Shown: positions 8,184 through 62,681 of the stretch, one piece after another
How positions within the stretch are numbered: position 1 is the first letter of the stretch
Layout of the letters: every line of letters starts with the position of its first letter
IMG/VR virus record: IMGVR_UViG_3300010396_000006
Coordinates: 41,648 to 105,647 of that record
DNA from: a virus
Direction: 5' to 3' (one strand)
DNA: 64,000 nt
Position numbers and translations under genes: made by a program
The notes under the pieces: model-generated
Database searches by the model: none
What the model was told of the DNA's origin: nothing
Seen by the model: only the letters and a program-made list of their open reading frames with translations

Positions 8184-8738
8184 ATGACGAATGGGATTCA
8201 TCGCTTGTTGACTGAACAATATCTTGAACTCAAAAGCCGTGTCGCGGCTGAATACAGTTCTGAAATCGAGTGGGCGGCAAATCTCAAGCTGTGCGCCGAC
8301 TCGCTTCGATTCGCCTATGAAACGATCTGGGTCATTCTGAACGCCGGGATGAAGATGCAGGTTGCTCGACAGATCGAATCAAAGATCCTGCCGACACTGG
8401 CCAAAGGCGAATCGGCATCAATGGTATTCGGTCACAAACTGAAATGCCGGGCAATTGATGATGTCTGGAAGAATCGAGTCAAACTGTTCAGCGAGTACCA
8501 ATCGGCAAATGACAAGCTGGAATACCTCGAAACACTGCCGCACATTGGGCCGATCACCAAATTCCATCTGGCTCGAAATCTTGGTTTAGACTTCTGCAAA
8601 CCAGACCGTCACTTAGTTCGTATTGCAGGAGATGAGACGGCGTCAGTAATGTGTCAGCGGCTGGCGGACGCGACTGGCGATCGAATTGGCGTTGTTGATT
8701 GTGTGATCTGGCGAGCCGCAAATCTGGGGTGGGTGTGA
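8184..8738 (+). CDS. HhH-GPD superfamily DNA glycosylase-like protein
   Basis: HhH 'LETLPHIGPITKFHLARNLG' followed by 'KPDRH'. Confidence 0.65.
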   Translation: MTNGIHRLLTEQYLELKSRVAAEYSSEIEWAANLKLCADSLRFAYETIWVILNAGMKMQVARQIESKILPTLAKGESASMVFGHKLKCRAIDDVWKNRVKLFSEYQSANDKLEYLETLPHIGPITKFHLARNLGLDFCKPDRHLVRIAGDETASVMCQRLADATGDRIGVVDCVIWRAANLGWV

Positions 8739-14329: not shown

Positions 14330-17300
14330 ATGTCACAAATCATGAGCCGACGCCGCAACCGCAACCGTCGCGTTGAGAACTATCGCAAGAATTCGGATCG
14401 GGTTGTTGAGCATCCAAATGTTCCGGCCCCCGAACTGAACGACTCCCAAATCAAGTCGATGGCGTCTCAGATGCGGGCGGCTCTGGCCGGAAGCTTCGGC
14501 GGCGCTCAAGTCACGAATCACCGCGAAGAAGCTCTCCACTATGAGGGCAATAGCTACGTCAATATCGCGGCCATCTGCGCCCAAATGATGATGGTGACGA
14601 TAACAGCCTATGTCGACGGATCGAACCAGCTTCGACAGCAGTCGGTCCGGAAGTCGCTGCGAGGTCTCGTCGGAAGCCGATGGAAGTCTCAATATGGGGT
14701 TGATGAGGCATCGTCGAAGCAACTCGAATCAGACCATTACCTGATGCGATTGCTGTCGAAGCCAAATCCGCACGAACCGGGCAGCATGTTCCGGTATCGG
14801 CAAACTCTTCAACTCAGGCTCACTGGAGGTGCGTTCCTGTGGAACGTCCCAAATATCAACGGCCGGACGTGCGAACGGTACGTCATCCCCACCACATGCC
14901 TGACGCCGGTCTATCCAGACAACACGTTGCCGTACGGTGGTTATCGCGTTCAACCAAACTGTATGCGATGGATTCCACTGGTTGACGATGGATTCGTGAT
15001 CGGGACCCCGGCCCTGATGCGAGTGTTGGGCATGATCATTGATGCCCGAGAAATCCAAAAGGTTGGCTATCCACATCCGATCTGGCTGGATGACTTCCAA
15101 AGCCCGATGTCTGCTGGCGCTCAGTGGGTCGATGCCGAACGATCGATCAACATCGCACGGGCAATGGGCATCAGCCGCGGCATGAATCCGAGCGGTTTCC
15201 TTGAACTATCCAAAGAATACATGGGCATCGAACAAGATGCGCTGAACATCACTCAGCGGAAACTCGATCGACAATATGGCGGCGTCAACAACACGGGCAA
15301 GGTCATTGCCGTGGCTCCCGATACCAAGTTCACCGGATACGATCGAAGCCCGAAAGACATGGAATACCATGAAGGGTACTTGGATCACCGGGAAGCGAAT
15401 CAGTCTCTACACGGCGTTCATCCGATCATCACTGGCGGACAGCCCCCCGGCGCATACGCGGCCTACTACGCCGCCATGCGAGCATTCGACAACAACACGT
15501 TGACTCCCATTTGTGACATGCTGGCGGAATCAGACACGTTCCACATTGCACCGCAATTCGGCGAAGGGATCACGATCGAGATCGAGCCAAAGCCGATCAA
15601 CGATGAGGACGAACTGAATTCACGTCTCCAGGTCGATGGTCAATTGGGGATCATCAAGGTCAATGAAGCGCGAGCATTGCGAGGAATGCCGCCATTGGAC
15701 GGAGCGCAAGGAGAAAAGCTGTGCGGACCGACTTCAAAGGATAAGGTTGGTCAGGATCAAGACAGCGACAATCCATCCAAGCCGAAGAAACCAAAGCAGT
15801 CTGGCGATGCGCCGTCAACTCCCGAGGTCCAAGAAGCCGAACAAGCGGACGTCCCCAAGGCTCCCGAAAATCCCATCGTCGGCAAGAGTGAATCAAAATC
15901 ACTTCAAGCCGCAATGGAAGGGATGAAGGAGGCGGACGAAGACTACATTCAAGAAATAGTTGCCAAGGCGTTGGATTCGCGACTGAAGGCGATGCAACCT
16001 GCCGAGAAGCCAAAGCGGAAGTATTCCTCGACGCAGTTTGATCTGCCTGCCGGTCTCGCCGAAAAAGTGCAGGAGATGGCAGCCCTGATCAATCCGGCCG
16101 ATCTCGCATCGGATGGAATCGAAGAAAATCCGCACGTGACTTGCTTGTACGGGCTGACCGAAGAATCACCCAATGATGTCAAGAAAGCCGTCAAGGGAAT
16201 CTCGGCCGGTCCGATCGTTCTTGAATCGCTGTCGTTGTTCCCGGCTGGTGACAAGCTTGCTCAGCATGGCGGCGAACAGTTCGACGTTTTGAAGATCAGC
16301 ATCGGCGGAAAGTTCATTCACGAGATTCACAATGCGATCGCAGAATCGTGCGAGTATGAAACCGATTATGCCGACTATTCTCCTCACTGTACGATCGCCT
16401 ACTTGAAGCCGGGAAAAGGCCGCAAGTATGTGACGATGAACAATCCAGTGGATGGGATGACGTTCATTCCTGACAAGCTGATCTTCAGTAGCAAAAACCG
16501 AACGGTCTCGGCAATTCGATTGAGCGTTCTGAAATCAGTCGAAGAACAACCATCAGAAGCTCAGATTACTGCCGGCAATTACAAAAAAGATCACATCACA
16601 ATTCAGGGGCTAAGGATCTCAATCGAAAATCCGAAAGGATCTGTTCGAAGTGGTCGTGACGATGATGGCAATGAGTGGTCAACGAAAATGCGGAATGATT
16701 ACGGCTACATCAAAGGAACGAAATCAGATTCCGATGGTGATCACATTGATGTCTTCGTTGGGCCAAATCCAAGTTCAGAATTGGTGTTCGTAATTGATCA
16801 GGTCAATCCGCAAAGCGGGCAACATGACGAACACAAATGCATGTTGGGATTCGATTCGAAAGATCAAGCGAAGTCTGCCTATCTCGAAAACTATTCCAAG
16901 GGTTGGAAAGGCTTCGGCGGCATTACTCCAATGCACATGGATCAATTCAAGGAATGGCTAGACAGCGGAGATTCATCAAAAGGAATCGCGAGAAAATCTC
17001 TCACGGCAGCATTCTCCGAATCAGAAATGAAGGGCCACAATCCAATCAGCGACATCCAAGCCATTGGAAAGAGACTCGCTGAATCCGATTGTGGAATGCC
17101 CGGATACGGTCAGATCTTTATCAAGGAAAACGGATCTGGCCAAGCATGGTATGTCGGTGGCGACGGAGATGAACGAGGATTCGATAAGACTGTCATTCAA
17201 GAACTGAAGAAAGTCACGGGGATTGACGAAGTTCGTTATGAGTCTGAATCGTTCCCGCCCGATGGGGAAGGATGGATTCAGGTCTATCCGAAAGTGTCGA

Positions 17301-20300
17301 AGCGTAAATCTCTCGGCATGTCCGAAGGGATCGGGTCAGATGGAGGATTCGCCGTCGCTTCCGAAGACGAACGATGCCCAAAATGTCCCAAATGCGGATC
17401 ACGGGAAACGCATCATGCTAGAACTGATGGCACAGGGAACGCGATCTGTAGCAATTGCAAATCAATTTTCACTGATCCTGATTATGGAAAACAGAAATCA
17501 GTTTCGTTTCCATCGTCAGAAGTCGTACCGGGCAACAACGGCCATCAATTCCCCAAGAACACATTGATTCTTGGTGGGGATCAAGTTCTGATGCCACCAG
17601 AGTCAGAACTCAAATCCAAATGGATCACGATTCATCCTGGGGGAGACAAAGACGCAACTGGCATTCACATCCTGATTGACGAAGACGGCGAAATCAAAGG
17701 CGGTCCGGCCGAACTGCGAGACAAAGGCATCCGCAAGATGTCTGACTTCGGGAAAGAAGACCTGAAGCCAGTCAAACCAAAAGACAATCACGAGAAGGCC
17801 GCATTCAACGCCAGCAAGCGAGCCGATCAAGCATCCGCCGATGCTAAAGAGTCGGGCGACCTGTTCGACCATATTGCGGCTAAAGAAGCCCACATGCACG
17901 CCGCAGCCCATCACAGCAAAGGCGGCAATGAAGATCAGGCGTCATATCACAGAAAGGCGGCTCAACAGCACGGTTCAGCCGCGACACCAACGGCTCCAGC
18001 GTCAAACGGACAACTGAGCGACGAAAAGATCATCCAGGCAATGAAGCCATCCGTTGATCGCAGCGGCATGGTTGAGGCCGAAGAACTGCGATCGATGCCA
18101 GAATTCGCTGGGATGTCGAAAGAGAAATTCGACCAACGAATGATGGACATGGCCAAAGTTGATCAGCCGGGCGGACCGAAGGTCTCGTTGCACCGATACG
18201 ACCGAGCCGAATCGCTGTCAGCGGACGATAAAAAAAAGATGATCTTCGATCCGGATGCGCCGGCACGATTCGAAGATGGACAAAAGGGAGCGTATTACAA
18301 TGCGGTCTCCATCCGCAAATCGTTGTCAGAAATGAAATCGCATTGGATTACGATCCATCCTCATGGCGATGAGCATGATGGAACGCACGTTTTGATCGAT
18401 GGAGAAGGGAATATCGAAGGCGGTCCCGAAGGACTGGCGAAACGTGGGATTCACAAGCTGTCCGACTTTGGGAAAGGCGGCGAATCAGCAGACAAACCAC
18501 ACGAAACCCGTGAAGAGTGGGCGAAGAGACATTCCGATGCCGCCGATCATTGGTTACATGGAGTGAACAATGATCTGGCAGCCGTGCATCAAGAACACGG
18601 CGACTTGATCACAAAAAAGCACATGACGGACAGCTTTCGAAATCACGTCAATACCGGAAGAATGACCCCAGATCAATATGAGGATCATGTTTCTAAGGGA
18701 ACCATTCTCGGTGGACACGATTACGAACGCGCTCAGCATGTCGAGCAGAAAATCCATGAGATCAAAAATCGTCCGCTAACTGTCCCGGAGCCAGATGGAA
18801 AGCATCCATACGTTGAACCGCCCGCCAAGCCGCCGGAAGAAAAGCCAGAAATCCGACCAGACATCGACGCTCCGATCAGCAAGAAAGACACGCCTCGCGA
18901 AACGGCGGCAAAGCAAAAGAAGATTGACGATGATTATGCGTTTGCTCGCAATTCATCCATCCCGAATGTCGGCGAAGATGTTGCCGATTCGGCTCGTCAC
19001 AAGCGAAATGCTTGGCGTGGATTGGAAGATGCGGAATCCAATGGAACCGCCGAATCAATGGTGACTCGTGATAATCTGCTCAAGGCCGAACCGCACAACT
19101 TGATGTCTCATGCCGGAAAACATCCACTGACATCACTGGCCATGCATTACGCGATGAGATCGTTCCCAGCGAAACCATCCAGCAATCGCGAAGTGGCCAA
19201 TGCCAGCGATCGGAAGGACTATCACGAAGCGTATCAGAGCATCAAAGCAAAAGCCGAGCATCTGGCGGAAACAGAATCCGATCCACGGGCAGCCGCAGAG
19301 AAGCTACGAGAACACGTCGGCAATCATCTGAAGGGATTGAGGGAGCGGAAGATTCCCGGACCCACAATTCCCGTGGCCGATCGATACAACAAGACCGCGA
19401 ACAATTTGGTTGGAATGCACAAGGCGTTACGATTCGCCAGCTACGGCCGACCATCGGCAAATAGCGTTCATGGCAAGATGGAAGAGTTCTCAAAGGCGAT
19501 GGCCGGGAAATATGGACTTCCAGAAAAGTATGAACCTGAAGCGGCCAAGCAATTCGCCTCCCATATTGAGACTCACGCCAAGGACATTATTGACGGGAAA
19601 TCGCTTCCACAGTCATTTGGCATTAAGGGAGAAAAGAAAAACGAATTTAATCCTGCCGATCGATACGTCAAGCATGCTGAACGAGCCGGGGGCAAGGATG
19701 TCAGTCACCAAACCGCAACGGGAGTCTCGGCGGCAAACTCCGTCGTAAACGACTTCGGGATGCGTGGCGTCCAATGGGGTAACAGCGTCACTGACGACGA
19801 ACGCCATCATCACGCTGCCAAGGTTGTCGAAGCGTTGACCGATCTGGCCGATACTCTCGGCATCAAGCCGGCTGATCTCAGTCTCGGCGGAAAGCTGGCC
19901 TTGGCCATTGGCGCTCGCGGTAAGGGAACTGCCTCGGCTCATTACGAACCGCATACCCAGGCCATCAACCTGACGCGGGCCAGCGGAGTCGGTACTCTCG
20001 CCCATGAGTGGGGACACGCCTTTGATCATTCACTGGAGAATTTCGCGAATCGTGCGACGAGTGCGGTCTATCACAGCGAAAACTATCGATCCAGTCCGGC
20101 AATGCAAAAGCTGACATCCGATTTCCGATCATCGGGATTCACGAATCGAATTCATAGTGAGGTTCGTGATATGGTGCGTCAGGGCCTGATGTCGAAAAAG
20201 AAAGCGGAATACTGGCTATCAACCAGAGAACAATTCGCCCGTTGCTTCGAGAGTTATGTTCAACACAAGCTGGCTGACACGAATCAGAAGAATACGTATC

Positions 20301-21037
20301 TTGCTGGTCTGATTTCGGACGGCGGCTTGTGGCCGACCAAGGAAGAAACGGCCAAGATGGCCCCCGCTTTTGACAGTCTGTTCGCTGAATTCCGCAAACA
20401 AAAGTATGGAAGCGAAAATCGGATTGATCAGTCTCGATCGGAAATCAAATCGGCAGTCTTGGATTTGGTTGGTCAATCCGTCTTTAAATCGTCGCGATGG
20501 ATCACAATCCATCCGCACGGTGAAGACGCGAAAGGCGTCCATATCCAGATCAATGACGACGGCGAGATCCTGTCAGGTCCCGCACATCTTCGCGACAAGG
20601 GAATTACCCACATGGGGGATTTCGCGAAGCGGGGAAGCAATCAAGCGGCCGTGGACGAACTGAAGCCTCACGCTCTCGAATTCCTGACCGAGCAACACAA
20701 GCTGAGAGAACATCACAAAGCCGAAGCTCGCAAACTGACTGGCAAGAATGCCGGCAATCTGGCGATGTCGGAAAACAGCTATCACGATCATTCGGATGCT
20801 CATCGATTCGAGACCGCCGCTCGCACATTCGCCCGAGAGAATCCCGATGCTGGATTGAATCCAGATGCTCACGACACGCCGGCCAAAGTCTGGGAGCTAA
20901 TCCGGGAGGGCAAGAAGAAAGCCCCGCTGATCAATTCGAAGGAAGTCCACGAGACAGCCAGAGCCTGGGTGAAGAATCACCGAACGAAGCGTGCGCCGGT
21001 AGGCACATACGAACACGATTCCGATTGGAACTTCTGA
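14330..21037 (+). CDS. portal protein fused to multiple effector domains (polyvalent protein)
   Basis: HK97-type portal N-terminus ('LLSKPNP...LRLTGGAF', 'GKVIAV', 'VNEARALRGMPP'); 2H domain (PHVT...PHCT); 'AGNYKKDH...IENPKGS...DYGYIKGT...DGDHIDVFVG' pyrophosphatase-like domain; Zn ribbon; three WITIHP repeats; 'GVQWGN...LAHEWGHAFD...EQFARCFE' LPD/metallopeptidase-type domain. Confidence 0.88.
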   Translation: MSQIMSRRRNRNRRVENYRKNSDRVVEHPNVPAPELNDSQIKSMASQMRAALAGSFGGAQVTNHREEALHYEGNSYVNIAAICAQMMMVTITAYVDGSNQLRQQSVRKSLRGLVGSRWKSQYGVDEASSKQLESDHYLMRLLSKPNPHEPGSMFRYRQTLQLRLTGGAFLWNVPNINGRTCERYVIPTTCLTPVYPDNTLPYGGYRVQPNCMRWIPLVDDGFVIGTPALMRVLGMIIDAREIQKVGYPHPIWLDDFQSPMSAGAQWVDAERSINIARAMGISRGMNPSGFLELSKEYMGIEQDALNITQRKLDRQYGGVNNTGKVIAVAPDTKFTGYDRSPKDMEYHEGYLDHREANQSLHGVHPIITGGQPPGAYAAYYAAMRAFDNNTLTPICDMLAESDTFHIAPQFGEGITIEIEPKPINDEDELNSRLQVDGQLGIIKVNEARALRGMPPLDGAQGEKLCGPTSKDKVGQDQDSDNPSKPKKPKQSGDAPSTPEVQEAEQADVPKAPENPIVGKSESKSLQAAMEGMKEADEDYIQEIVAKALDSRLKAMQPAEKPKRKYSSTQFDLPAGLAEKVQEMAALINPADLASDGIEENPHVTCLYGLTEESPNDVKKAVKGISAGPIVLESLSLFPAGDKLAQHGGEQFDVLKISIGGKFIHEIHNAIAESCEYETDYADYSPHCTIAYLKPGKGRKYVTMNNPVDGMTFIPDKLIFSSKNRTVSAIRLSVLKSVEEQPSEAQITAGNYKKDHITIQGLRISIENPKGSVRSGRDDDGNEWSTKMRNDYGYIKGTKSDSDGDHIDVFVGPNPSSELVFVIDQVNPQSGQHDEHKCMLGFDSKDQAKSAYLENYSKGWKGFGGITPMHMDQFKEWLDSGDSSKGIARKSLTAAFSESEMKGHNPISDIQAIGKRLAESDCGMPGYGQIFIKENGSGQAWYVGGDGDERGFDKTVIQELKKVTGIDEVRYESESFPPDGEGWIQVYPKVSKRKSLGMSEGIGSDGGFAVASEDERCPKCPKCGSRETHHARTDGTGNAICSNCKSIFTDPDYGKQKSVSFPSSEVVPGNNGHQFPKNTLILGGDQVLMPPESELKSKWITIHPGGDKDATGIHILIDEDGEIKGGPAELRDKGIRKMSDFGKEDLKPVKPKDNHEKAAFNASKRADQASADAKESGDLFDHIAAKEAHMHAAAHHSKGGNEDQASYHRKAAQQHGSAATPTAPASNGQLSDEKIIQAMKPSVDRSGMVEAEELRSMPEFAGMSKEKFDQRMMDMAKVDQPGGPKVSLHRYDRAESLSADDKKKMIFDPDAPARFEDGQKGAYYNAVSIRKSLSEMKSHWITIHPHGDEHDGTHVLIDGEGNIEGGPEGLAKRGIHKLSDFGKGGESADKPHETREEWAKRHSDAADHWLHGVNNDLAAVHQEHGDLITKKHMTDSFRNHVNTGRMTPDQYEDHVSKGTILGGHDYERAQHVEQKIHEIKNRPLTVPEPDGKHPYVEPPAKPPEEKPEIRPDIDAPISKKDTPRETAAKQKKIDDDYAFARNSSIPNVGEDVADSARHKRNAWRGLEDAESNGTAESMVTRDNLLKAEPHNLMSHAGKHPLTSLAMHYAMRSFPAKPSSNREVANASDRKDYHEAYQSIKAKAEHLAETESDPRAAAEKLREHVGNHLKGLRERKIPGPTIPVADRYNKTANNLVGMHKALRFASYGRPSANSVHGKMEEFSKAMAGKYGLPEKYEPEAAKQFASHIETHAKDIIDGKSLPQSFGIKGEKKNEFNPADRYVKHAERAGGKDVSHQTATGVSAANSVVNDFGMRGVQWGNSVTDDERHHHAAKVVEALTDLADTLGIKPADLSLGGKLALAIGARGKGTASAHYEPHTQAINLTRASGVGTLAHEWGHAFDHSLENFANRATSAVYHSENYRSSPAMQKLTSDFRSSGFTNRIHSEVRDMVRQGLMSKKKAEYWLSTREQFARCFESYVQHKLADTNQKNTYLAGLISDGGLWPTKEETAKMAPAFDSLFAEFRKQKYGSENRIDQSRSEIKSAVLDLVGQSVFKSSRWITIHPHGEDAKGVHIQINDDGEILSGPAHLRDKGITHMGDFAKRGSNQAAVDELKPHALEFLTEQHKLREHHKAEARKLTGKNAGNLAMSENSYHDHSDAHRFETAARTFARENPDAGLNPDAHDTPAKVWELIREGKKKAPLINSKEVHETARAWVKNHRTKRAPVGTYEHDSDWNF

Positions 21038-21840: not shown

Positions 21841-21926
21841 AAATCTTACTGATTTCAGTTGACATCCTTGCCGATATCTGGATAGCATTCTGAACATGTG
21901 AGCGGGTTGAACCAGTAACTCCCCGC
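21841..21926 (+). promoter_or_regulatory. promoter module 2
   Basis: AAATC-TTACT-GATTT, TTGACA-18-TAGCAT, imperfect hairpin with CCAGTAAC loop. Confidence 0.7.
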
Positions 21927-25029: not shown

Positions 25030-25051
25030 ATTGGTCGAAAAGAAATTATAG

Positions 25052-25157
25052 AAATCTTTTTGATTTTCCGATAAAATCGACGCCTCGATCTTGAATAGGA
25101 AAATCTTTCTGATTATCATCGGCCCATCGCAACGCGACTGATGACAGTAACCATCAG
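25052..25157 (+). promoter_or_regulatory. promoter module 3 (two operators)
   Basis: Operators at 25052 and 25101, TTGAAT-17-TATCAT, hairpin CTGATG-ACAGTAAC-CATCAG. Confidence 0.75.
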
Positions 25158-25946: not shown

Positions 25947-28768
25947 TCGCGGCCTGCTGCTCTCCCCGCTCAATTGTGGGCGGGGACTGTTGTGCGCCGA
26001 AAGACAATCTTGAACGGAGAGAACACAATGCCGCGAATCTACTCATCTGCCAATGATCCGCTCGACTTCTGCAAACGATGCTTTCCAAAAACCGAATCCG
26101 CCGCCGAGAAGAAATACGCTCAAGACGGACCGGGTCCGGACAATCGTGGCAATTGTTTCACCTATGATGCTGATCATCCGCCCTATGAATGCGAAGATTA
26201 CAGGTGCCACAAATGCAACAAGCTTCTGACCGAGGTCGATAATTACACCCAAAGCTGAGTGATCCTTGCAAAGCGAATGGTGTCAGTATTGACGAACATG
26301 GAAAGGTTCGTAGGACTGGAGACATCCAAATTATGATCAAACGCATTACGGTACAGGATGAATCGGAACGCTGCGGCTATTGTGGCTCGAAGTGTTCTCA
26401 GGGCGAAATCATGTGGCGAGACGATCAGACTGGCGCTGTCGGTTGCAGTCGTCGTTGTTGCGTGGATGCCGCCGGAGCTAAAACCCAAGTCATCCATCGT
26501 CAGCAATTAATCAGCGGACTCGGCCCAACGTATTCGCTTCTGGTCGGGAATTGATATCCTGTTGAGGCATTGAACCATGTCACCGGCGGCAGGGGAGTGG
26601 CGAAATATACTCCCCTGCCGCTCCCGCCTCTCAAAAGGAATTGAACTCGATGAAAGTGATTGAAACACTCACGCTCGAACAGAATCAGCAACTGGCGTTA
26701 ATGCTCAAGATGACGGCTGCTATCTCAACGCGGTTCTCAGAGTTCGAATCGACCGAACAGCAGATGATCGAAACGCTCGTTCTGAGCGGCATCAGTGGTC
26801 TGATCGGCCTTGGTTCAAACACGGAGATTCACAATCAGACCATTCGAAGCGGAGCGTTGTTTCGAATCTATGATGAAGTGATGTCGCTGGTGAAAGAGCG
26901 GATTGAGGCCGCGATCTTCGAGGCGACACCGCTGGACACGTCAACAGAAATATCGACCATTTCATCTTTAGAAACAAGGGCCGGCTAATGGGCAGATCTG
27001 CACAGATCATATTGAAGTCAACCCGACGATCGGCATCGGCCGTTATCGGCCTGCTGGATCTTCTGGGAATGTTTTGTCGATCTGAAAAGGAGTTATTGAC
27101 TTCGTCGACAGTCTTGCTGATTTCGGAGATATGCGCATCCCTGGAACTGCCTCTCGAACTCATGAAGGGGAAATTGACCGATCCAGACGTCGTCGATCGT
27201 ATGGCCAACGATATATTTGAATTCGCAAAAGAACGGATTGAGAAAGAGGCCAGACAGGCAACATCCAGCAATTGATTCGGAACGTGGACAGTTCCGACTG
27301 AGGGTTAATTGATGTGCAACTTCGTCCAGTTTGTTCGGTGGCACAACTGCACTGAATCTGAGTCGCTGGAGCTGTGGCAGCATCTGGGAACGAGGAGATT
27401 TTTGAAGATGATGAAAGATGGTCCTCCAAAGGCTGAAGTGATTGCCGGTGTCTGCCCGAATTGCGGGGAGAAATTCGCTGAGTTGAAAGACGGCAAGATT
27501 CCAACCCACGACTTTCCCCGGCCGTGCCGAGCAGTGTGCCGAGGGTCTAATCAACAGCCGCGGCATCCCGACGACAAGTCGCTGTTGTGGTGCGATGGTG
27601 GCCAATAACTGCGGGTAATGACTGAGTTCTGACGGCTGTTTTGACGGAACATTTCGCATTCTGTGAGGAGGAATGATCGGTGAGACAGGTTGTTGACCGA
27701 ATTACCTGCGATGACTGCGGTCGAGTCTACGAATTTGAGGCACTACGTACCGGCACGTCGCCCATCATCGCTCGATTTGATTCTCTCACGGAATGGCTAA
27801 AGCGACTCGGTTGGAATTGCCGGCCAATGGAAAACAGCCGATTTGCGTTTGAAGACAAGTGTCCCGACTGCATCCAGAGAAAGTGAATGGAGGATTGATG
27901 CGTTTTTTGGCGGCATTCTGGGGATCATTTGCAGTCGGTTTTTTGGGCTGCATGGCGTGGCTGTATTTCAGTCTTTTTGACTCATCTGATCCGTCGTGGA
28001 CAGACAGCTTCGGCTTCGGCGTGATTCTGATCTGCCCATTGGCAGGCGTGGCCCTCGGGGTAATTGCGACGGCCGTCGATCTGGTCGCCGTCGTTGCTTC
28101 GAAGTATTCGAGGAGAGGCTAAATGGATGACAAAAGGGTCGTGCGATTACTTGGGTTCTTGATGATTGGTTTGGCGATAGTCGCCGCAGCAACTTGCAGC
28201 AGTGGCGGATTCTCGGGAGGAACGTCCGGGCGGCTGAATAGGACGGCAATTTGGCCCGGCGGATTCGATCCGGGCAAGACGTGTCTTCCGTAACGACGCA
28301 ACTAATCAGGTTCTATGAAGGGAGTGCGAACGTCGGCCACTTGGGCGGAATACGTGTGGTGGTGAGGGATCAGTCCATTGAGCACGTCGCGAACTTCAAT
28401 AATCGACCCAGAGACGTGACAGGCCGGAGAGACGGCCAATTTGAATTCATGTCCCGACCTGGGAGGGGAAGAGCGATGAGTCTCACGGCGTTGGAAAAAT
28501 GCGATATTCGAAAATCGAACGCGGAGAGGATTCGCACCTTGTGGAGGGCGATGACGCCAGTCCAGGGAGAGCAGCGAGTCATCTACCAATGTGGCGACTG
28601 CAAGAAATTGTTCGGCCGTCGCTTCGTTCCGTATGGCCTTGGCTACGGGCTTACTGTTGGGTCGTGCGTATGCCAGTTGACTGGTCATCGTCCGATGCAT
28701 GAAGTCGCTTCAAAGAATCCGTAGACGATAGCTGTTTGGTTCTGCGATCGGTTTTAGAGGGTAACTGA

Positions 28769-29212
28769 ATGATCAAATCCATTCCGAATATGCCGAAGCA
28801 AACCACGCCCACGAACTGCTTTTCGGCGTGTCTTGCGTCCGTCCTGGGCTGCTCGATCGAGAATGTTCCGTCAGGTGCCGACGGCGCGTCGTGGGATTGG
28901 GACGCCGTTCAACTGTGGCTTGCTGCCGAATTCGGTCTCCAGTTGCTGGAAGTGACATTCGGCGAAGGCGGGACGATCTATCCGATACCGGTTCGCGTGC
29001 CGTGCATCATTACTGGAAATTCGCCGCGTGAGTGCGTTACCGGTCGGCACGCCGTTGTGGCTGAAGCGATTGGTCTGGATGGATTCTGCGTGATCCACGA
29101 CCCGCACGCGTCTAACGATGGACTGGATGGCGAGCCGACGCATGCGTGTTTCTTCGTTCCGATCAAGGTGACGGACGTATTCATGCACGAGCGAGAAAAT
29201 GTTGAGCGGTAA
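28769..29212 (+). CDS. papain-like (C39-like) peptidase
   Basis: 'QTTPTNCFSACLAS' ... 'HAVV' ... 'IHDP' (Q-C-H-D). Confidence 0.6.
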   Translation: MIKSIPNMPKQTTPTNCFSACLASVLGCSIENVPSGADGASWDWDAVQLWLAAEFGLQLLEVTFGEGGTIYPIPVRVPCIITGNSPRECVTGRHAVVAEAIGLDGFCVIHDPHASNDGLDGEPTHACFFVPIKVTDVFMHERENVER

Positions 29213-29237
29213 ATTTCGCATTCTGATTGGAGGATTG

Positions 29238-29750
29238 ATGAAAAAGCTGTTGAGTGTTGTTTGTGTTTTTGGATTGTGCTGCGTGGTCTTCGGTGAAGGC
29301 GTTGGCCGCACAATCGAGGAAGACATGGGGCTTCCGCCGTTGCCAAAAGCAGGGAAGGCCACTGAGCAGGAAGCATTGAATTATCGCCGCTGGGAAATTG
29401 TCGAAGTCAATGGCAAAGATCGATACAAAGCGAAATGGCTGGAGAAAAAATTAGACGACATTCGACCATATCTCGAATCGAATACCGGCGGTGTGTACGT
29501 CGACATCGAACATGGGACTACTGGACTGCACAACGTCTCAGCGATTCTGGTCCAATACGACAAATTCAAGGACCATCGAAACTTGGCCGTGTTCAACAAA
29601 TCCAAAAATATCGCTCTGCTGGCGTTCGACAGGTGGAACACGTGCTGTTTGGGCATCGCCTCTCCCGACGCTGACGAAATTATTCGACGGCACGGATTTA
29701 AATGCTCGGCGTTAGACGTGGCTCGAATGCTGAGGCTGATGGAGGAATGA
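29238..29750 (+). CDS. exported/membrane hypothetical protein
   Basis: Signal-like MKKLLSVVCVFGLCC after GGAGG RBS. Confidence 0.55.
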   Translation: MKKLLSVVCVFGLCCVVFGEGVGRTIEEDMGLPPLPKAGKATEQEALNYRRWEIVEVNGKDRYKAKWLEKKLDDIRPYLESNTGGVYVDIEHGTTGLHNVSAILVQYDKFKDHRNLAVFNKSKNIALLAFDRWNTCCLGIASPDADEIIRRHGFKCSALDVARMLRLMEE

Positions 29751-29772
29751 CGGAACTAATCAGGCACCCGCT

Positions 29773-29949
29773 ATGGAAAACGAAATTCGCCGATGCGACT
29801 ACTGTGGAGCGCCAATCGACCCTATTGATTGGTGTTATGGGTGTATGCGCGGCGAGAAGTGCCACAAGCGTCGTCGCAAAAGGAAAGACGCCAGGCATTG
29901 CAGCAGCGAATGCCAGAGGGCCGACCATCGCGACAAACGTAAGTCTTGA
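29773..29949 (+). CDS. small Zn-finger protein (below the ORF-track length cutoff)
   Basis: Translated by hand: MENEIRRCDYCG...CYGC...RKDARHCSSEC...KS*. Confidence 0.55.
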   Translation: MENEIRRCDYCGAPIDPIDWCYGCMRGEKCHKRRRKRKDARHCSSECQRADHRDKRKS

Positions 29950-31601
29950 ATTCATGTCCCGACCTGGGAGGGGAAATCGATGCCAGAGAAGCCAACATTC
30001 ATGACGGCCGATGAATATGACGCCATCGTTCAGGCGGATGGAGCGACATGCGCATGCTACGAGGGATTCAGCCGGATGATGGCAGTTTGGCGCTACGAGA
30101 ATCCCGACGACGATCGAAGCGACTACGAGATTTTAGAATCGCCGGAGTTTCAGAAATGGAACACGCCGGCTGAAACGCGATAGCTGTTTGGTTCTGCGAT
30201 CGATACTTAATGGAACACAACCGCATTCTATTCGGAGATGACGATGCGAGGTCTTTTGTTCTTCATGCGTTCTGAAAAGGTCGATCACCAGTATCGCAAT
30301 CAGAACGAGGCAAAGCTGGCCAAAACACTGAATGAAGCGAGGGCAACCTTGGCTAATTTGGTCAATACCTACATCGGCCGATTGTATGAGTTCCGGACGC
30401 CGGAAGATGTTTGGATTGATGTCGATCCTGACGTCGAAAATGGAAAGCGGCTCGGTCTCGTGTCGAAACATGGTGAAGGCCATCAACTCATTATCCGCGA
30501 TGGTGAGGACGATCATGGATTGCACGAACTGGATCATCACGAATTGACGGAACTGTTCGAGCGATTGCCAGAACTCAAACGGGAAGTCATCAAGGCATCG
30601 ATTGATCACCTGGGCGAGATCCAATCGGCAATCGCATTCTTTCGTGAGAATGTTCTTGGCGTTGCTTCTGACGAGGAAGAGTGAATGTCGCCTGAAGAAC
30701 AAGAATCAGTCAGGGCAGAAGAAAAACGTCACTACGAACTCGGCGTGATGTTCCTGTTTGATATTGCCGACACCATCGACATAGAAAAGCCAAGCACCGT
30801 CGATGCCGAATTTGGATTGTTCAATACCGTGGCGATGCTGATGATTCGATTAAACCAGCATCTTGACGGGCCGACAAAAGACCGCATGCGTGATGACGGT
30901 TCAATCCAAAAGATGGTCTCTGCTGGGGCTATGGCGATGATGGACGAATTCAAGCGAATCCGCGAGGAAGATCTGAGAAAGAACTGAATTATGATTATCA
31001 GTTTTTATGAGATGCAATTGTTCTGTGATGCACAAAATCATGTGAATCCAAAAGGTCCGTCGCAGAGTTCATTCACTGGAACAACAGTAGAGTCAGCCAA
31101 GCAGCATGCTGCCAGATGCGGGTGGACAATCAAAAATTATCGCAAGAGAGAAGTTTGCCTATGTCCGAAGTGTGGTCCAAAGGCCAAGATCAAATGAAAG
31201 GCGGTCCAATGTCTGAACAAGACGAAATGAAACAGTTGCTTCATGACATCGGTTGCCGTTGCCGTCATCCGAATTCAAGTCAGGAATGGTACATTCTGGA
31301 CGGCATTTCGATTGATTTCTACCTGTTGTTTGACACGTCACTGGACGATGAAGAACCAAAGCCGGGAACTTGCGACGTCTTTCTACTCGAAACCGGGGAT
31401 GTTCCGGGGTCGCATGATTGCCGAATTGCCGCTGATTTAATTCCGAAACAGATCATCGCGTTGCTGCGATTAATGAATCTGCCGTTGCTGAAAGAACGAG
31501 TCAGAGACGTGCTGGAAGTCAGGGCCGCGATCTACGGTCTGGTGTGATTCCGATTCCAAGGCCAAATCAGACCTGTTAGATTCCGGCCAAAGGAATCAAT
31601 C

Positions 31602-33095
31602 ATGGAACTGCCCAATCGGGACGATTTGGAAGCGAGATTCGCGAAACGGTTCGGCAAGGTCGCCAGAAGGCACATGAGGCAATTCAGGAAGTTGCTCGGC
31701 AATCCACCAGATCTACGAAACGTCCCCGAAGATTTCTACGAACAGATGCAACGGGAAGTCGATAACGAGCTGTATGCGATCCTGTTGCTGATCTTCGACG
31801 AATCGGCCCTGTATCACGGCTGGAGTGGCACAGCAGCGAACCTCGCAGCCTATGGGTGGGCGCACAAGCGAGCGATCGACTTCTCAAAGTATTGGGTTGA
31901 TTCATCTCGATCGATCCTACAAACCGGATTCGACAAGCTGAATGAATCAGAGCCAGTTCAGGAACGGACGGTTGAGGAAGCCAGGGAAGCCGCACGGCCG
32001 AAAGTCGATGAAGGCGTTAAACTGCCGACCAAGGAAGAAATCAGTAAACTCGTCGATAAGGTATTCGGGCCGCATCGCATTGCCGTGGTGGCTGTCGACG
32101 AGACAACGCGGGCGCAACATGCCGGGGCAGAATCGGCGGTTGACGCGACAGTCGGACTATCGACGGATGATCTGTGGCGAGTTCAGGAATCATCCCCAGG
32201 TGTTCCGGATGAAAAAGTTTGTCCATTGTGCCGATCCGTGAATCGAGTGAAGCGGAAAGATTGGCCGTGGCGACTCAGCGAAGGTCCGCCCTGTCATCCA
32301 AACGACCGTTGCTATGTGGAATATGTCAATGTGCCAGTCAAGGAAGCCGTTGGCCGAATGTTGGAAGATTCCGATTACAAAAGCCTATCACTTCATCGCG
32401 AATCATTCGATCTCAACGCATGGTATCGAACAGCCGCAAACGCTCCCGAGTGGCGGGCACACTGCCGAAAGAATGAAATCGAGATCGACGATCTGACAGC
32501 GTTCAAATCGTTCAATCCGAACGAGCCAAGGGCAAAGGATGGCAGGTGGATGTCAGGGGGATCAGATCATGACCCATCCGCAAATGATAAGTATGTCCTG
32601 AGGAGAACATCTAACCCTGACGCAGATCTCAAGCGAGGATGGTCAGCATGGGGCGGAATCTACACTGATTCGCCGCTCGACAATCCGGAAGTCGATAACA
32701 AAATGGCGGAAGAAGGGAAAGACGTCTACGACATAATCAACGCCATCGGTGACGACAATACGCACGAAACAGAAGAAGGCTGGGAGATCAACGACACTCC
32801 AGAGGCAAAACAAGCCGTCGCTGAATGGATTGATGAAGAACTGGGATTGGATATGCGCAAAGATCCAACAAGCGGCAAGTGGGCTCTATTTCATCACCAT
32901 GGCCTTTCGTCGTACGAATTGGAATCAACCCATCCTGACGCCGCCGTTAATGAGGGTCGAAGGAAAGTCACTAGCGGAGAGCATGACTTCCTCACAGGTG
33001 GCCACACTGGAATCGATCCAGTTGCGTATCACCACGTTGGCGATGACAAGTATGTGTTTCGCGTTCGAGATACTGGCATTCAAAGGGATTCTTAA
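31602..33095 (+). CDS. MuF-like minor head protein with C-terminal extension
   Basis: 'VAVDETTRA...VCPLC...PPCHPNDRC' MuF motifs; then 'FKSFNPNEPRAKDGRW' and an acidic unknown domain. Confidence 0.8.
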   Translation: MELPNRDDLEARFAKRFGKVARRHMRQFRKLLGNPPDLRNVPEDFYEQMQREVDNELYAILLLIFDESALYHGWSGTAANLAAYGWAHKRAIDFSKYWVDSSRSILQTGFDKLNESEPVQERTVEEAREAARPKVDEGVKLPTKEEISKLVDKVFGPHRIAVVAVDETTRAQHAGAESAVDATVGLSTDDLWRVQESSPGVPDEKVCPLCRSVNRVKRKDWPWRLSEGPPCHPNDRCYVEYVNVPVKEAVGRMLEDSDYKSLSLHRESFDLNAWYRTAANAPEWRAHCRKNEIEIDDLTAFKSFNPNEPRAKDGRWMSGGSDHDPSANDKYVLRRTSNPDADLKRGWSAWGGIYTDSPLDNPEVDNKMAEEGKDVYDIINAIGDDNTHETEEGWEINDTPEAKQAVAEWIDEELGLDMRKDPTSGKWALFHHHGLSSYELESTHPDAAVNEGRRKVTSGEHDFLTGGHTGIDPVAYHHVGDDKYVFRVRDTGIQRDS

Positions 33096-59874: not shown

Positions 59875-60600
59875 ATGTGCGCCACTGAAAAGATGGTTGT
59901 CGTTCACAAGTGGGAAGACAAAGGCGTCGGCAAGGCCCCCTTCCGTCTGGTTGGCTTCATCTCGATGCCTAATCTCGAATCATTTGGGACGAATGTCGAA
60001 GGCTACAACAATGCGATGATCGAAGCATGGCATGTCGCCAGATCGCACGGTGTTCGACTCGGTTCTTGCGACGTCTGCGGAACAGGGATTCACAATCATT
60101 ATGTGATCCAAGAGGCTGGCGGCAAGCGATTCGTTGTCGGCTGCGATTGCGTGGCGAAGACCGACGATTCCAAACTGATCACCGCTGTTGAAAATGACAG
60201 GCGAGTTCGCGATCGAGCCAAACGACGGGCTGCCAGTGAGGTCAAGTATGCCGCTGAACGTCAACGACGAATTGATGCCGAACAGACCGAACGGTCCGCG
60301 AACGGCGGCAAGACTCTGCGAGAAATCGATGAAGAATCACGACAGGCCGCATTGATCGTTGCTCGCGAAAAGTATCAGAAAGAAAACTGGTGGCTGATTC
60401 ATATCATCCAAGGCATGTCGGGCGAGTTCATTCAATCGATGACCGATAAGCTCTGTGAAGGTCCAATAAGTGGCCTGTCTGACCGATGCGTCTCGATCCT
60501 GCGAGATATCTACGGCAAAGCCCACGGACGATCGAACAGCAAGAAATACGATGCCGCTGTGGAAGTCTTCAATTCTTATCTGCCGGAGTCCGTGGAATGA
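59875..60600 (+). CDS. Zn-binding hypothetical protein
   Basis: 'CDVCG...VGCDC' followed by a coiled coil. Confidence 0.6.
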   Translation: MCATEKMVVVHKWEDKGVGKAPFRLVGFISMPNLESFGTNVEGYNNAMIEAWHVARSHGVRLGSCDVCGTGIHNHYVIQEAGGKRFVVGCDCVAKTDDSKLITAVENDRRVRDRAKRRAASEVKYAAERQRRIDAEQTERSANGGKTLREIDEESRQAALIVAREKYQKENWWLIHIIQGMSGEFIQSMTDKLCEGPISGLSDRCVSILRDIYGKAHGRSNSKKYDAAVEVFNSYLPESVE

Positions 60601-61236
60601 AAACCAAAGCGACTCATACCGGAACCTGTCAAATCTGTGGACGAACGCAAAAGCTTCCCAGTGGAATGTTGTCGCTGCACGGCTATACGAAGGAATGGGG
60701 ATTCTTTTCCGGCACATGTTCCGGATCGTCTCACCTGCCGTTTGAACAGTCGATCTCATTGATTGCCGATGCCATCGAAAAGGCGTCGAAGCAACTTAGT
60801 GATCTGTCGGCCGAAAGTCTCGCTTGGAAGAACGGGAAACAACTCGATGGGAATCTGGCATGGAAGCATGTTTACGTCTCTCGCAATCGATTCGAGAGAG
60901 GTCAATACGTTTGGCAGCATGTTCAAGTAATCTCGGAACAGTTTAAACCGATTTCGTTCTCCGGTAATCCAGTGACGCTTTACAGCTATGCGGAAATTGA
61001 CGCGGACGGTAAACCCGGCAAGCCGGAGCGGTTCTATCCGAGCGGAGTGGTGGAATCGATCGATGCTGTACGGCGGCAACTCAATTCCCAATATGCGGAG
61101 CAACATCTCGACAAGCGAGTCGCGGGTCTTGATCGATACGTAAAATGGCAGCAAATGAGAATCAAAGACTGGAAACCGTCTGAACTGAAGCCAGTTGAAT
61201 GACATCCGCTGTGGAAGTCTTCAATTCTTATCTGCC
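60554..61236 (+). repeat. 31-bp direct repeat flanking ORF 60597-61202
   Basis: CCGCTGTGGAAGTCTTCAATTCTTATCTGCC at 60554 and 61206. Confidence 0.9.
60597..61202 (+). CDS. hypothetical protein with N-terminal Zn-binding motif
   Basis: 'GTCQICGR...HGY...CSGS'. Confidence 0.6.
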   Translation: MKTKATHTGTCQICGRTQKLPSGMLSLHGYTKEWGFFSGTCSGSSHLPFEQSISLIADAIEKASKQLSDLSAESLAWKNGKQLDGNLAWKHVYVSRNRFERGQYVWQHVQVISEQFKPISFSGNPVTLYSYAEIDADGKPGKPERFYPSGVVESIDAVRRQLNSQYAEQHLDKRVAGLDRYVKWQQMRIKDWKPSELKPVE

Positions 61237-61564
61237 AACCGAGGAAGAATGATGACACCGGAAGACATTATGAGAACGGTTGATGAAGTCGAAAGGCGAT
61301 GGCGAAGCCGTACCCCGGCAAGATCGGTTCTTGATGCCAATGCGTCATATCGGGTGGCGATGTCTGAGACGATTCAATGGGGAAATCAAAACGGAATCAA
61401 AGTCGACAGGATGGACATCAATCTACAAGTCGAGATGACGAAGATGTTTTTTCGATTGCGTCGGGAATTCCCAAATGAGGTATGGGATCACTTGAACGCG
61501 GCGACAAGGACATTGTGTAAGCGACATGGAATTCCAATCCCAAGAAAATCAAATCGAGGCCCAC

Positions 61565-62131
61565 ATGCGAATCATCAATGAAACGAAGTGGAAGACGGAA
61601 CATCTGCGAGAATTCGTCCGGCGCATCGTCCCGAATGAACTCGACCCCGAAAAGCGAAAGGGTGTCGTGATCCGGTTCGTGAACGCCAGAAACCGCGGCG
61701 TCTCAGGTTGGGCCTACCGTAACAGCCGAAGATGCCGGATCATTGTTCCAAAGCCGGGGAGCAAGATTGAACATCTCAAAGAAGCCTTGGCCAAGGTCAT
61801 CGCCCACGAACTGGCTCATCTTCAGGGCCGACCCGGTGGACGTTCCAGTGAACTTAACATGCGAGGATCAGACCGCTACGGCTATCGCGGCGATTACGTG
61901 ACGTATTACGCATGGGCGAAGGAACTGCCGCTAGAACCGCAAGAGGAACAACACAAAGCGAAGCCGGCGACAGACGACAAGTACGCTGTGGAAATCGCTC
62001 GGATGGAGAAGCTGATGTCTGGTTGGGAACGTCGCAAGAAGCGAGCAGAAACCGCGATCAAGAAATATGCTCGCAAGATCAAATATCGACAGGGCCGATT
62101 GGCGGCGTGTCGATCAACGAAGGCGGAATAA
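61565..62131 (+). CDS. HExxH zinc metallopeptidase-like protein
   Basis: 'VSGWAY...VIAHELAH'. Confidence 0.65.
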   Translation: MRIINETKWKTEHLREFVRRIVPNELDPEKRKGVVIRFVNARNRGVSGWAYRNSRRCRIIVPKPGSKIEHLKEALAKVIAHELAHLQGRPGGRSSELNMRGSDRYGYRGDYVTYYAWAKELPLEPQEEQHKAKPATDDKYAVEIARMEKLMSGWERRKKRAETAIKKYARKIKYRQGRLAACRSTKAE

Positions 62132-62366
62132 TGAATCCGAACAATGGGAATCGTGGCGGCTGTTATCGGACAATCCGGCAACAGTCGCCGCTGATGTAAG
62201 TCGTCTCGTCCTGTCTGTGCGGCGCGTCGAGATATACCGGCTACATTCCCAAATGCCGAAAGCTGATCCTGTCTTGTGGCCATGTCGCCTATCAGAAGGC
62301 CAGCGTTCCAGTTCAAAAACGAGTGCGGTGTCGAGACTGCCTCAATAAGAAATCAACCGAGGAAGA

Positions 62367-62681
62367 ATGATCATGCCGAAAAAAGAAACAGCCGAGGCAA
62401 AGCACACAGCCGGCCCGTGGTTCTTCAAGGAAGGGAATCGCGAAAATCATGCGATGTCAACAATCGTCCTACAGAAAGACATGGATTTCCAAATCGGATT
62501 CGCCATCTGCGAATCAAGGAACGCGAGCCAGCGAGCCGAAGACATCGCCAATGCCCGACTGATGGCGGCGTCACCTGATCTACTCAAAGCCTGTCAAGAA
62601 GTGATGCCAGCCCTGCAACGGGCGAAGTTGAGTGTTCTGGCCTGTTTAGTTCAGGACGCCATCGACAAGGCGACGAAATAG
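62367..62681 (+). CDS. common small phage protein ('HTPGPW...ANARLIAAAPDLL' type)
   Basis: 'KHTAGPW...ANARLMAASPDLL'. Confidence 0.7.
   Translation: MIMPKKETAEAKHTAGPWFFKEGNRENHAMSTIVLQKDMDFQIGFAICESRNASQRAEDIANARLMAASPDLLKACQEVMPALQRAKLSVLACLVQDAIDKATK

What the first reader, a model, noticed from the sequence alone, without database searches (positions are those of the whole stretch)
27651..30230. Slot-like gene island: five boundary sequences repeat in the same order around entirely different genes
Seen: D(ATTTCGCATTCTG)-E(TGGAGGATTGATG)-C(AACTAATCAGG)-A(TTGAATTCATGTCCCGACCTGGGAGGGGAA)-B(CGATAGCTGTTTGGTTCTGCGATCG) at 27651/27888/28300/28441/28726 and again at 29213/29228/29754/29946/30178, with a partial D near 30222. 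Slot contents are unrelated between rounds (D-E holds an ORF, then is empty; C-A holds a noncoding element, then a Zn finger; A-B holds two different ORFs). Joints supply RBSs or stop codons. Established: boundary sequences promote mosaicism in lambdoid phages. Inference: an ordered cassette-exchange scaffold, integron-like in effect but with no integrase in view.
Basis: partly seen in the sequence, partly recalled or inferred. Interest (0 to 1): 0.8.

Follow-up and report, generated by a model that had tools for sequence, protein, structure and literature searches.

The report
Ordered linker scaffold, repeated, unrelated phage genes
In an uncultured 106-kb phage, the same five short gene-junction sequences occur twice in the same order around completely unrelated small genes, which is best read as two versions of one swappable accessory-gene module joined head to tail; it is a multi-linker variant of a known way phages shuffle genes, and the exchange has not been seen directly.

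Summary
Motifs D, E, C, A and B each occur exactly twice in the window, on the + strand, in the same order. A (30 nt) and B (25 nt) are exact and are two of only four significant short repeats in the whole 105.6-kb genome. A degenerate third D precedes g9. No other adjacent segment pair in this genome comes close: 0 of 486 reach the observed chain.

The joints are stop/ribosome-site/start junctions inside one + strand accessory operon between the portal and MuF genes. They show no promoter, terminator or stable hairpin. Genes in matching slots are unrelated both pairwise and by profile.

The best reading is conserved linkers that survive while the ORFs between them are swapped by short-homology recombination. 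The phage encodes ERF, YqaJ and RuvC. An unequal crossover at D would have put two versions of the module in tandem.

The integron comparison fails on mechanism. The genome has no integrase, resolvase or HNH, and the array has five different joints rather than one attC-like family.

Exchange among relatives could not be tested, because no relative carrying a joint was retrievable. This scan has noted single-linker cassette arrays in other phages. The fixed series of different linkers is what is new here.

The parts
27645..27677 (+). Joint D, copy 1 (exact core 27651-27663), followed by the ribosome site of g1
27680..27886 (+). g1, 68 aa, CxxC..CxxC zinc-ribbon-like; occupies slot D-E in round 1
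27884..27900 (+). Joint E, copy 1: g1 stop, ribosome site and ATG of g2
27898..28293 (+). g2 (74 aa, two hydrophobic spans) and g3 (56 aa, N-terminal hydrophobic span); occupy slot E-C in round 1
   Evidence: both are called genes in two assemblies
28292..28310 (+). Joint C, copy 1, directly after the g3 stop
28311..28440 (+). Slot C-A in round 1: 130 nt with no credible ORF. It has a coding-like base periodicity in the frame that runs open into g4, and a 5-bp GC hairpin at 28422-28437. Possibly a decayed cassette.
28441..28470 (+). Joint A, copy 1 (30 nt, exact): supplies the ribosome site of g4
28476..28724 (+). g4, 82 aa, member of a widespread ~80-aa four-Cys family; occupies slot A-B in round 1
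28726..28750 (+). Joint B, copy 1 (25 nt, exact), 1 nt after the g4 stop
28769..29212 (+). g5, 147 aa, C39-like Cys/His peptidase-fold family (phrog_5845); occupies slot B-D in round 1
29207..29240 (+). Joints D and E, copy 2, only 2 nt apart (empty D-E slot); follows the g5 stop and supplies the ribosome site and ATG of g6
29238..29750 (+). g6, 170 aa, with an N-terminal signal-peptide-like segment; occupies slot E-C in round 2
29746..29764 (+). Joint C, copy 2, overlapping the g6 stop
29773..29949 (+). g7, 58 aa, basic zinc-ribbon-like; occupies slot C-A in round 2; its TGA stop lies inside A
29946..29975 (+). Joint A, copy 2 (30 nt, exact): g7 stop and ribosome site of g8
29980..30183 (+). 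g8, 67 aa, acidic; occupies slot A-B in round 2; its TAG stop lies inside B
30178..30202 (+). Joint B, copy 2 (25 nt, exact)
30212..30237 (+). Joint D, degenerate copy 3 (GGAACA, 4 nt, CGCATTCT, then a ribosome site) before g9; closes the second period
30238..30684 (+). g9, 148 aa, first gene after the array; only near-identical relatives are known
60554..62371 (+). Second locus of the same kind. A 31-nt exact repeat (60554 and 61206) brackets gene X (60597-61202). An adjoining 18-nt ribosome-site-plus-ATG repeat (61236 and 62354) brackets the next genes.

Best explanation
The stretch holds two paralogous copies of one accessory-gene module. The module's frame is a fixed series of five short junction sequences (D, E, C, A, B, then D again). 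Each junction is a translational joint in a polycistronic operon: the stop of the gene before it, a ribosome site, and in some cases the start codon of the gene after it. The ORFs between the joints are interchangeable. In the lineage of this phage they were replaced by double crossovers within the joints between collinear, related genomes, which swaps contents and keeps the order. The likely catalyst is the phage's own short-homology recombination set (ERF annealing protein, YqaJ exonuclease, RuvC resolvase). One unequal crossover between the D that ends one version and the D that starts another then placed the two versions in tandem. Shown: the joints, their order and positions, the non-homology of the slot contents, the recombination genes, and the lack of any site-specific recombinase. 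Inferred: that crossovers happen in the joints, the two-parent origin, and the enzyme involved.
For: (1) The joints are real, ordered and far beyond chance, and a third D closes the period. (2) Interleaved collinear repeats are the mark of a tandem arrangement of two homologous frames. Independent insertions would give nested or separate repeat pairs instead. (3) The contents are unrelated by pairwise Smith-Waterman with shuffles and by profile comparison: g4 family against g8, g5 family against g9, and g6 family against g2 all score below 1% probability. Slot lengths also differ (D-E 237 vs 15 nt, A-B 285 vs 232 nt, measured start to start). (4) Identity of 30/30 and 25/25 nt with abrupt edges, next to unrelated sequence, cannot arise by divergence after duplication. 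(5) The slot genes are real and mobile. g4 has 53 cluster representatives, and g5 has 33 relatives. In the retrieved contigs that carry a g5 relative, no other predicted protein of this window has a match. g6 has relatives of 49-83% identity. (6) The island is hypervariable. The nearest retrievable relative, L007, has about 2.2 kb between portal and MuF against 10.5 kb here, and has none of the array genes there. (7) The phage encodes ERF, YqaJ and RuvC. No PF00589, PF00239 or PF01844 match exists anywhere in the genome. (8) The other two significant short repeats in the genome also sit at gene junctions and bracket accessory genes. An 85-nt repeat brackets a five-gene block that includes a g5 relative in an unrelated phage. 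(9) Recombination between short repeated intergenic cassettes, producing deletions, insertions and mini-circles, has been shown experimentally in T4-type phages (PMC2839356, PMC4122927).
Against: No second genome carrying any joint was found, so conservation of the joints across phages and variable slot contents among relatives remain unobserved. Exact A and B are absent from viral contigs, and the 22-nt A core is absent from metagenome and genome contigs. Near-identical records are withheld by the tools. D, E and C have exact cores of only 11-13 nt, which is short for homologous recombination. Exact direct repeats of 25-30 nt spaced 1.5 kb apart should be lost by deletion in a phage with an annealing recombinase, so either the arrangement is young or both rounds are under selection. 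Perfect identity of A and B could instead reflect strong functional constraint.
Confidence: 0.5

Rival explanations
1. The joints are primarily cis-acting expression elements, for example docking sites for a translational regulator or start-associated sequences like those of Cluster K mycobacteriophages. Selection for that function keeps them identical, and any role in recombination is incidental.
For: A, E and D each carry or directly precede the ribosome site, and A and E lie 0-7 nt from the start codon. A is an imperfect palindrome spanning the ribosome site. A possible third C-like copy follows a stop codon elsewhere in the genome. SAS elements likewise precede genes of different families (PMC3203893).
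Against: Each joint has only 2-3 copies in 105 kb, against the 93 SAS sites identified across the Cluster K genomes. No fold beats shuffled controls. Function alone does not explain why five different elements recur in the same order with a period of about 1.5 kb. This rival does not exclude the best explanation.
Confidence: 0.2
2. The repeats are passive scars of out-of-register illegitimate joins between related genomes. They were kept only because joins at gene boundaries are viable, and they do not guide exchange.
For: The 31-nt repeat at 60554/61206 is the 3' coding end of the upstream gene, duplicated behind an inserted gene. The 85-nt repeat in L004 duplicates an intergenic region plus 17 codons. 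Both look like scars.
Against: In the array every ORF has been replaced while every joint is intact. That requires eight or more endpoints each falling just outside an 11-30-nt joint. Random joins normally leave genes conserved, not only the spacers between them.
Confidence: 0.12
3. This is an integron-like site-specific cassette system whose recombinase is unrecognised or supplied by the host.
For: Cassette-like units with defined ends sit in one orientation, in one operon downstream of a promoter-like site.
Against: No tyrosine recombinase, serine recombinase or HNH match exists in the whole genome. The joints belong to five sequence families, not one. They have no attC-like hairpin, and A and B share no inverted repeats.
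Confidence: 0.04
4. This is an old tandem duplication whose coding parts diverged beyond recognition.
For: The layout is periodic, with offsets of 1340-1562 nt.
Against: Non-coding joints are 100% identical while adjacent ORFs have no pairwise or profile similarity and differ in size and number. g4, g5 and g6 belong to three distinct families, each with its own relatives.
Confidence: 0.03
5. This is an assembly chimera that joined two strain variants in tandem.
For: The genome is a metagenome assembly, and a slightly different strain exists (source 'SRC', 1-4 residue differences).
Against: Two assemblies give the same unique length: 105,647 minus a 123-nt overlap and 105,665 minus a 141-nt overlap both equal 105,524. 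They also give the same proteins. The joints are shorter than assembly k-mers and reads, so every junction must be spanned by reads with unique flanks. The JGI gene call P0042 reads across the junction from g5 through D and E into g6.
Confidence: 0.03

Closest known systems
PeSL (promoter-early stem-loop) cassettes of T4-type phages (Arbiol et al. 2010, PMC2839356; Comeau et al. 2014, PMC4122927)
   Same: Short conserved intergenic sequences flank non-essential ORFs of unknown function in a hyperplastic region. Recombination between them by the phage's own general recombination system explains insertion, deletion and replacement. No dedicated recombinase is involved.
   Different: PeSLs are one family of promoter plus terminator stem-loop plus ribosome site, and any two can recombine. 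Here there is no promoter, terminator or stable stem-loop. There are five different joints in a fixed series, so a cassette would be addressed to one slot. No mini-circles or recombinants have been observed here.
Linker or boundary sequences proposed for lambdoid phage mosaicism, as summarised in PMC3029335 (the HK620-type examples are recalled from memory)
   Same: Short conserved sequences at gene boundaries separate non-homologous modules and keep gene order during exchange.
   Different: Those were defined by comparing different phages. Here the evidence is two paralogous frames within one genome, and conservation across genomes could not be tested.
Start-associated sequences (SAS/ESAS) of Cluster K mycobacteriophages (Pope et al. 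2011, PMC3203893)
   Same: A conserved, asymmetric sequence overlaps the ribosome site a few bases before the start codon of genes from different families. Upstream stop codons sometimes lie inside it.
   Different: SAS is one 13-bp consensus with many copies spread over half a genome. Here each joint has 2-3 copies, and some joints (B, C) follow stops rather than precede starts.
Integron cassette arrays
   Same: An ordered, co-oriented array of small, unrelated, promoter-less ORFs lies downstream of a promoter.
   Different: There is no integrase, no attI or attC, and no single recombination-site family.
Single-linker cassette arrays noted earlier in this scan in other phages (e1-3640981, e1-5915345)
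   Same: Stop-to-ribosome-site linkers separate small accessory genes, and the same PeSL-like interpretation applies.
   Different: Those arrays repeat one linker many times. This one repeats a series of five different linkers twice, in order. The earlier notes were not checked here.

Membership tests
Integron | IntI-type tyrosine recombinase next to the array | tested here: not met
   PF00589 has no match in the whole 105,647-bp genome, while the controls match. PF00239 is also absent.
Integron | One attC family of imperfect palindromes that fold as single strands, at each cassette end | tested here: not met
   The five joints are different sequences. The DNA folds of A and B are weak on both strands: A does not differ from shuffled controls, and the B top strand is only marginally better than shuffles at -4 kcal/mol.
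PeSL cassettes | Sigma-70-like early promoter within the repeat | tested here: not met
   No promoter-like site lies at any joint. The nearest lie at 25049-25119 and 21859-21888. The consensus scan may not fit the host's promoters.
PeSL cassettes | Stem-loop terminator within the repeat | tested here: not met
   The RNA folds of five of the six joint segments do not differ from shuffled controls; the D copy-1 segment is marginal (z -1.98, 8 of 200 shuffles fold as well). The only terminator-like hairpin, at 28422-28437, lies outside A and occurs in one round only.
PeSL cassettes | Recombination between repeats seen as indels between close relatives or as mini-circles | not testable with these tools
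   No close relative was retrievable.
Boundary or linker sequences (modular exchange) | Short conserved sequence at gene boundaries, flanked on both sides by non-homologous genes | tested here: met
   Met within this genome.
Boundary or linker sequences (modular exchange) | The same sequence conserved in different phage genomes | tested here: inconclusive
   Exact-match scans for A, B, the A core and a degenerate D found nothing related. Only exact patterns can be scanned, and near-identical records are withheld.
Tandem segmental duplication | Collinear repeated markers at a constant period | tested here: met
   Offsets are 1340-1562 nt, and the series reads D..B D..B D.
Tandem segmental duplication | Homologous content between the copies | tested here: not met
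   There is no pairwise or profile similarity.
SAS/ESAS | One consensus present in many copies immediately upstream of start codons | tested here: not met
   Each joint has 2-3 copies in the genome, even allowing mismatches.

The most novel reading that the evidence does not exclude
The five different joints act as position addresses. A cassette bounded by A and B can only enter the A-B slot, one bounded by E and C only the E-C slot, and so on. A phage population would then keep a fixed-order rack of expression-ready slots and draw each slot's content from its own pool of genes. Both E-C slots here hold envelope-directed proteins. This would be a natural, recombinase-free, ordered assembly system, with the tandem array being two racks caught in one genome.
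Probability: 0.2. Interest if true: 0.8.

Novelty: new variant of a known kind. Interest (0 to 1): 0.5.

Why it matters
Clear boundary sequences are rare, and most phage mosaic joints show none, so whether linker homology or random illegitimate joining builds phage mosaics is still argued. This genome holds two copies of one frame side by side. That gives internal evidence that short junction sequences can outlive every gene between them, in a phage lineage far from the model systems. It also suggests that different linkers can fix the order of the slots. If relatives confirm the exchange, the joints would be a ready handle for cataloguing accessory genes (anti-defence or host-takeover candidates) slot by slot in metagenomes.

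Tried and rejected
1. Exact scans found nothing: A and B in viral contigs, and the 22-nt A core in metagenome contigs and genome contigs.

2. A degenerate pattern of D plus ribosome site gave two hits, identical in sequence, on unrelated phage contigs with no shared proteins. This is the number expected by chance.

3. blastn of the region against cultured phages gave no match. tblastn of g4 and g6 gave none, and g5 gave only relatives of about 29% identity in Arthrobacter and Pseudomonas phages.

4. Locus searches gave no useful context. Single-sequence queries with g5 and g9 found no viral-contig locus. g5-family profile searches found only distant homologues in unrelated neighbourhoods without joints. 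The g6 family had no locus. The g4 family was absent from three related or long viral records.

6. I used cluster membership as a stand-in for strain variation. The 'SRC' variant is patchy and fragmentary over the whole island, so its missing genes carry no information.

7. RNA element in the C-A slot: the fold has z = -0.2, there is no Rfam match, and no homologue covers its open frame.

8. A longer g4 reading through A was rejected. All homologues match only the 82-aa form.

9. GC and GC3 of the slot genes lie within about 2 sd of the window mean (GC3 0.54-0.66 against 0.57 ± 0.05), so they give no signal of foreign origin.


Full report
CONTEXT. The window is the last 64 kb of a 105,647-bp IMG/VR virus record. 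Nearly all long ORFs are on the + strand. The stretch lies in a 10.5-kb island of small genes between a 2235-aa portal fusion (14330-21037) and a MuF-like gene (31602-33095). That placement rests on synteny with relative L007 and on earlier notes of this scan. Promoter-like sites lie at 21859-21888 and 25049-25119. None lies inside the array, and the gaps between genes are 0-71 nt apart from one gap of 182 nt. The array is therefore internal to a polycistronic accessory operon.

OBSERVATION. D, E, C, A and B each occur exactly twice in the window, all on the + strand and in the same order. A is 30 nt and B is 25 nt, and both are exact with abrupt edges. With flanks, D extends to 33 nt at 82% identity, C to 19 nt at 89% and E to 17 nt at 94%.

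A self-comparison of the whole genome finds only four significant internal short repeats apart from a duplicated piece of portal coding sequence. These are A, B, a 31-mer and an adjoining 18-mer near 60.5-62.4 kb. Short 11-13-mers do repeat by chance in this window. However, a collinear chain of five matches totalling 92 nt is unmatched: 486 other adjacent segment pairs of the same sizes reach at most three matches and 36 nt.

A third, degenerate D precedes g9. It consists of GGAACA, 4 nt, CGCATTCT and then a ribosome site. Three of the five + strand copies of that octamer in the genome are D sites. The layout is therefore D..B, D..B, D.

WHAT THE JOINTS ARE. Each joint sits at a gene boundary.
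- D follows a stop (directly in round 2; 42 nt after the g0 stop in round 1) and precedes a ribosome site.
- E comprises a ribosome site, spacer and ATG.
- C begins at or just after a stop.
- A contains the TGA that ends g7 and the purine-rich ribosome site placed 6-7 nt before the ATG of g4 and g8.
- B contains the TAG that ends g8, and it follows the g4 stop by 1 nt.

None of the joints has a promoter or terminator consensus. Their RNA and DNA folds give no convincing structure: most do not differ from shuffled controls, two (the D copy-1 RNA segment, z -1.98, and the B top-strand DNA, z -2.16) are marginal, and all are weak. Rfam gives no match.

WHAT THE SLOTS HOLD.
- g1 and g7 are small CxxC proteins.
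- g2 and g3 are small hydrophobic proteins, and g6 has a signal-peptide-like N-terminus. Both E-C slots therefore hold envelope-directed products (read from the sequences).
- g4 belongs to a widespread family of about 80 aa with four conserved Cys and no Pfam entry. It has 53 cluster representatives, and all of them match only the 82-aa form.
- g5 belongs to a Cys/His family with a C39-like peptidase fold that is common in phages.
- g6 has four relatives of 49-83% identity.
- g9 has only near-identical relatives.

Same-slot genes are unrelated, both by shuffled Smith-Waterman and by profile comparison, where probabilities are below 1%.

The 130 nt between C and A in round 1 have no credible ORF, no significant fold and no homologue. 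They do have a coding-like base periodicity, so this may be a decayed cassette.

HOW IT MOST LIKELY AROSE AND WORKS. Interleaved collinear repeats mean that two homologous frames lie in tandem. Independent insertions would give nested or separate repeat pairs. Non-coding joints at 100% identity beside unrelated ORFs exclude divergence after a duplication. It follows that two versions of one frame existed with different genes in every slot. The genes were replaced while the joints were retained.

The most economical route has two steps. The first is double crossovers in the joints between collinear relatives. The second is one unequal crossover between a terminal D and an initial D.

The phage has the tools for short-homology recombination. 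It encodes an ERF-family annealing protein, a YqaJ-like exonuclease and a RuvC-like resolvase at genome positions 16767-18936. It has no tyrosine recombinase, serine recombinase or HNH nuclease. Short homology patches suffice for phage recombination systems, and lambda Red promotes recombination between diverged sequences (PMC2839356 discussion; PMC2327257).

SUPPORTING PARALLELS. In the same genome, the 31-nt repeat is the 3' coding end of ORF 59875-60600, repeated just behind the inserted gene X (60597-61202). Removing X through that repeat would restore an overlapping stop/start with the next gene. The adjoining 18-nt ribosome-site-plus-ATG repeat brackets the following genes. In an unrelated 55.8-kb phage, an 85-nt repeat (an intergenic region plus 17 codons) brackets five genes, among them a g5 relative. 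Accessory genes bracketed by repeated junction sequence are thus recurrent.

The island itself is hypervariable. Relative L007 (40-65% protein identity) has about 2.2 kb between portal and MuF and none of the array genes.

WHAT COULD NOT BE SHOWN. No other sequence carrying a joint was found. The tools scan exact patterns only and withhold near-identical records. As a result, neither the neighbourhood of the 83% g6 relative nor recombinant reads could be examined. Exchange in a population therefore remains an inference.

ARTEFACT CHECK. Two assemblies give the same unique length, 105,524 bp plus end overlaps of 123 and 141 nt, and the same proteins. The joints are shorter than assembly k-mers and reads. 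A tandem chimera is therefore very unlikely.

COMPARISON AND VERDICT. The array works like PeSL cassettes and like the classical linker or boundary-sequence model. It is not a PeSL, because it has no promoter, terminator or stem-loop. It is not an integron, because it has no integrase, no attC and five different joints. It is not SAS, because each joint has only 2-3 copies.

Earlier notes of this scan describe single-linker cassette arrays in other phages (I did not check them). What differs here is a fixed series of different linkers, seen as two copies of the frame in one genome. I rate it a new variant of a known kind. Interest is moderate. It would rise if relatives show slot-specific exchange.

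Noticed in passing
window 60554-62371: A 31-nt exact repeat (60554 and 61206) brackets gene X (60597-61202). Copy 1 is the coding 3' end of ORF 59875-60600 and copy 2 is non-coding. An adjoining 18-nt ribosome-site-plus-ATG repeat (61236 and 62354) brackets the next genes. Both the present junction and the junction restored by deleting X keep an overlapping ATGA stop/start.
   Followed up: partly
L004 5965-8489 (same contig as L009): An 85-nt exact direct repeat (an intergenic region plus the first 17 codons) gives two different ORFs (6000-6320 and 8440-8673) the same N-terminus. It brackets five genes, including one that by eye resembles DUF5131 and a g5 relative.
   Followed up: partly
window 28416-28436 and L011 8701-8721: There is a 21-nt identity covering the GC hairpin just upstream of joint A. 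In L011 it lies a few bases before a tRNA-like gene with a ~40-nt insert after the anticodon arm (in the variable-loop region of the Rfam alignment). It may be chance (E 0.004 in a small database).
   Followed up: partly
genome position 26555-26578 (outside the window, about 15 kb before its start): A possible third C-like copy (16 of 19 bases) lies directly after a stop codon.
   Followed up: partly
window 28476-28724: g4 belongs to a widespread family of ~80-aa proteins with no Pfam entry. The family has four conserved Cys and a conserved RRFIPYGLG-like core, and 53 cluster representatives.
   Followed up: partly
window 28769-29212: g5 is a phage-borne family with a C39-like Cys/His peptidase fold. 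In the retrieved contigs that carry a relative, no other predicted protein of this window has a match, and distant relatives occur in Arthrobacter and Pseudomonas phages.
   Followed up: partly
window 63878-64000 and genome 1-123: The 123-nt 'direct terminal repeat' may be an assembly overlap of a circular graph. A second assembly is 105,665 bp, which equals the same 105,524 bp plus 141 nt.
   Followed up: no
L007 8879 and 11392: An 18-nt hairpin with a CAGTAAC loop is repeated on either side of MuF in the relative. This is the same loop motif that other notes report near promoters of this genome. Here I saw it at about 21925 and 25150.
   Followed up: no
window 27898-28293 and 29238-29750: Both E-C slots hold envelope-directed products (two small membrane proteins in one, a signal-peptide protein in the other), although the sequences are unrelated.
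   Followed up: no
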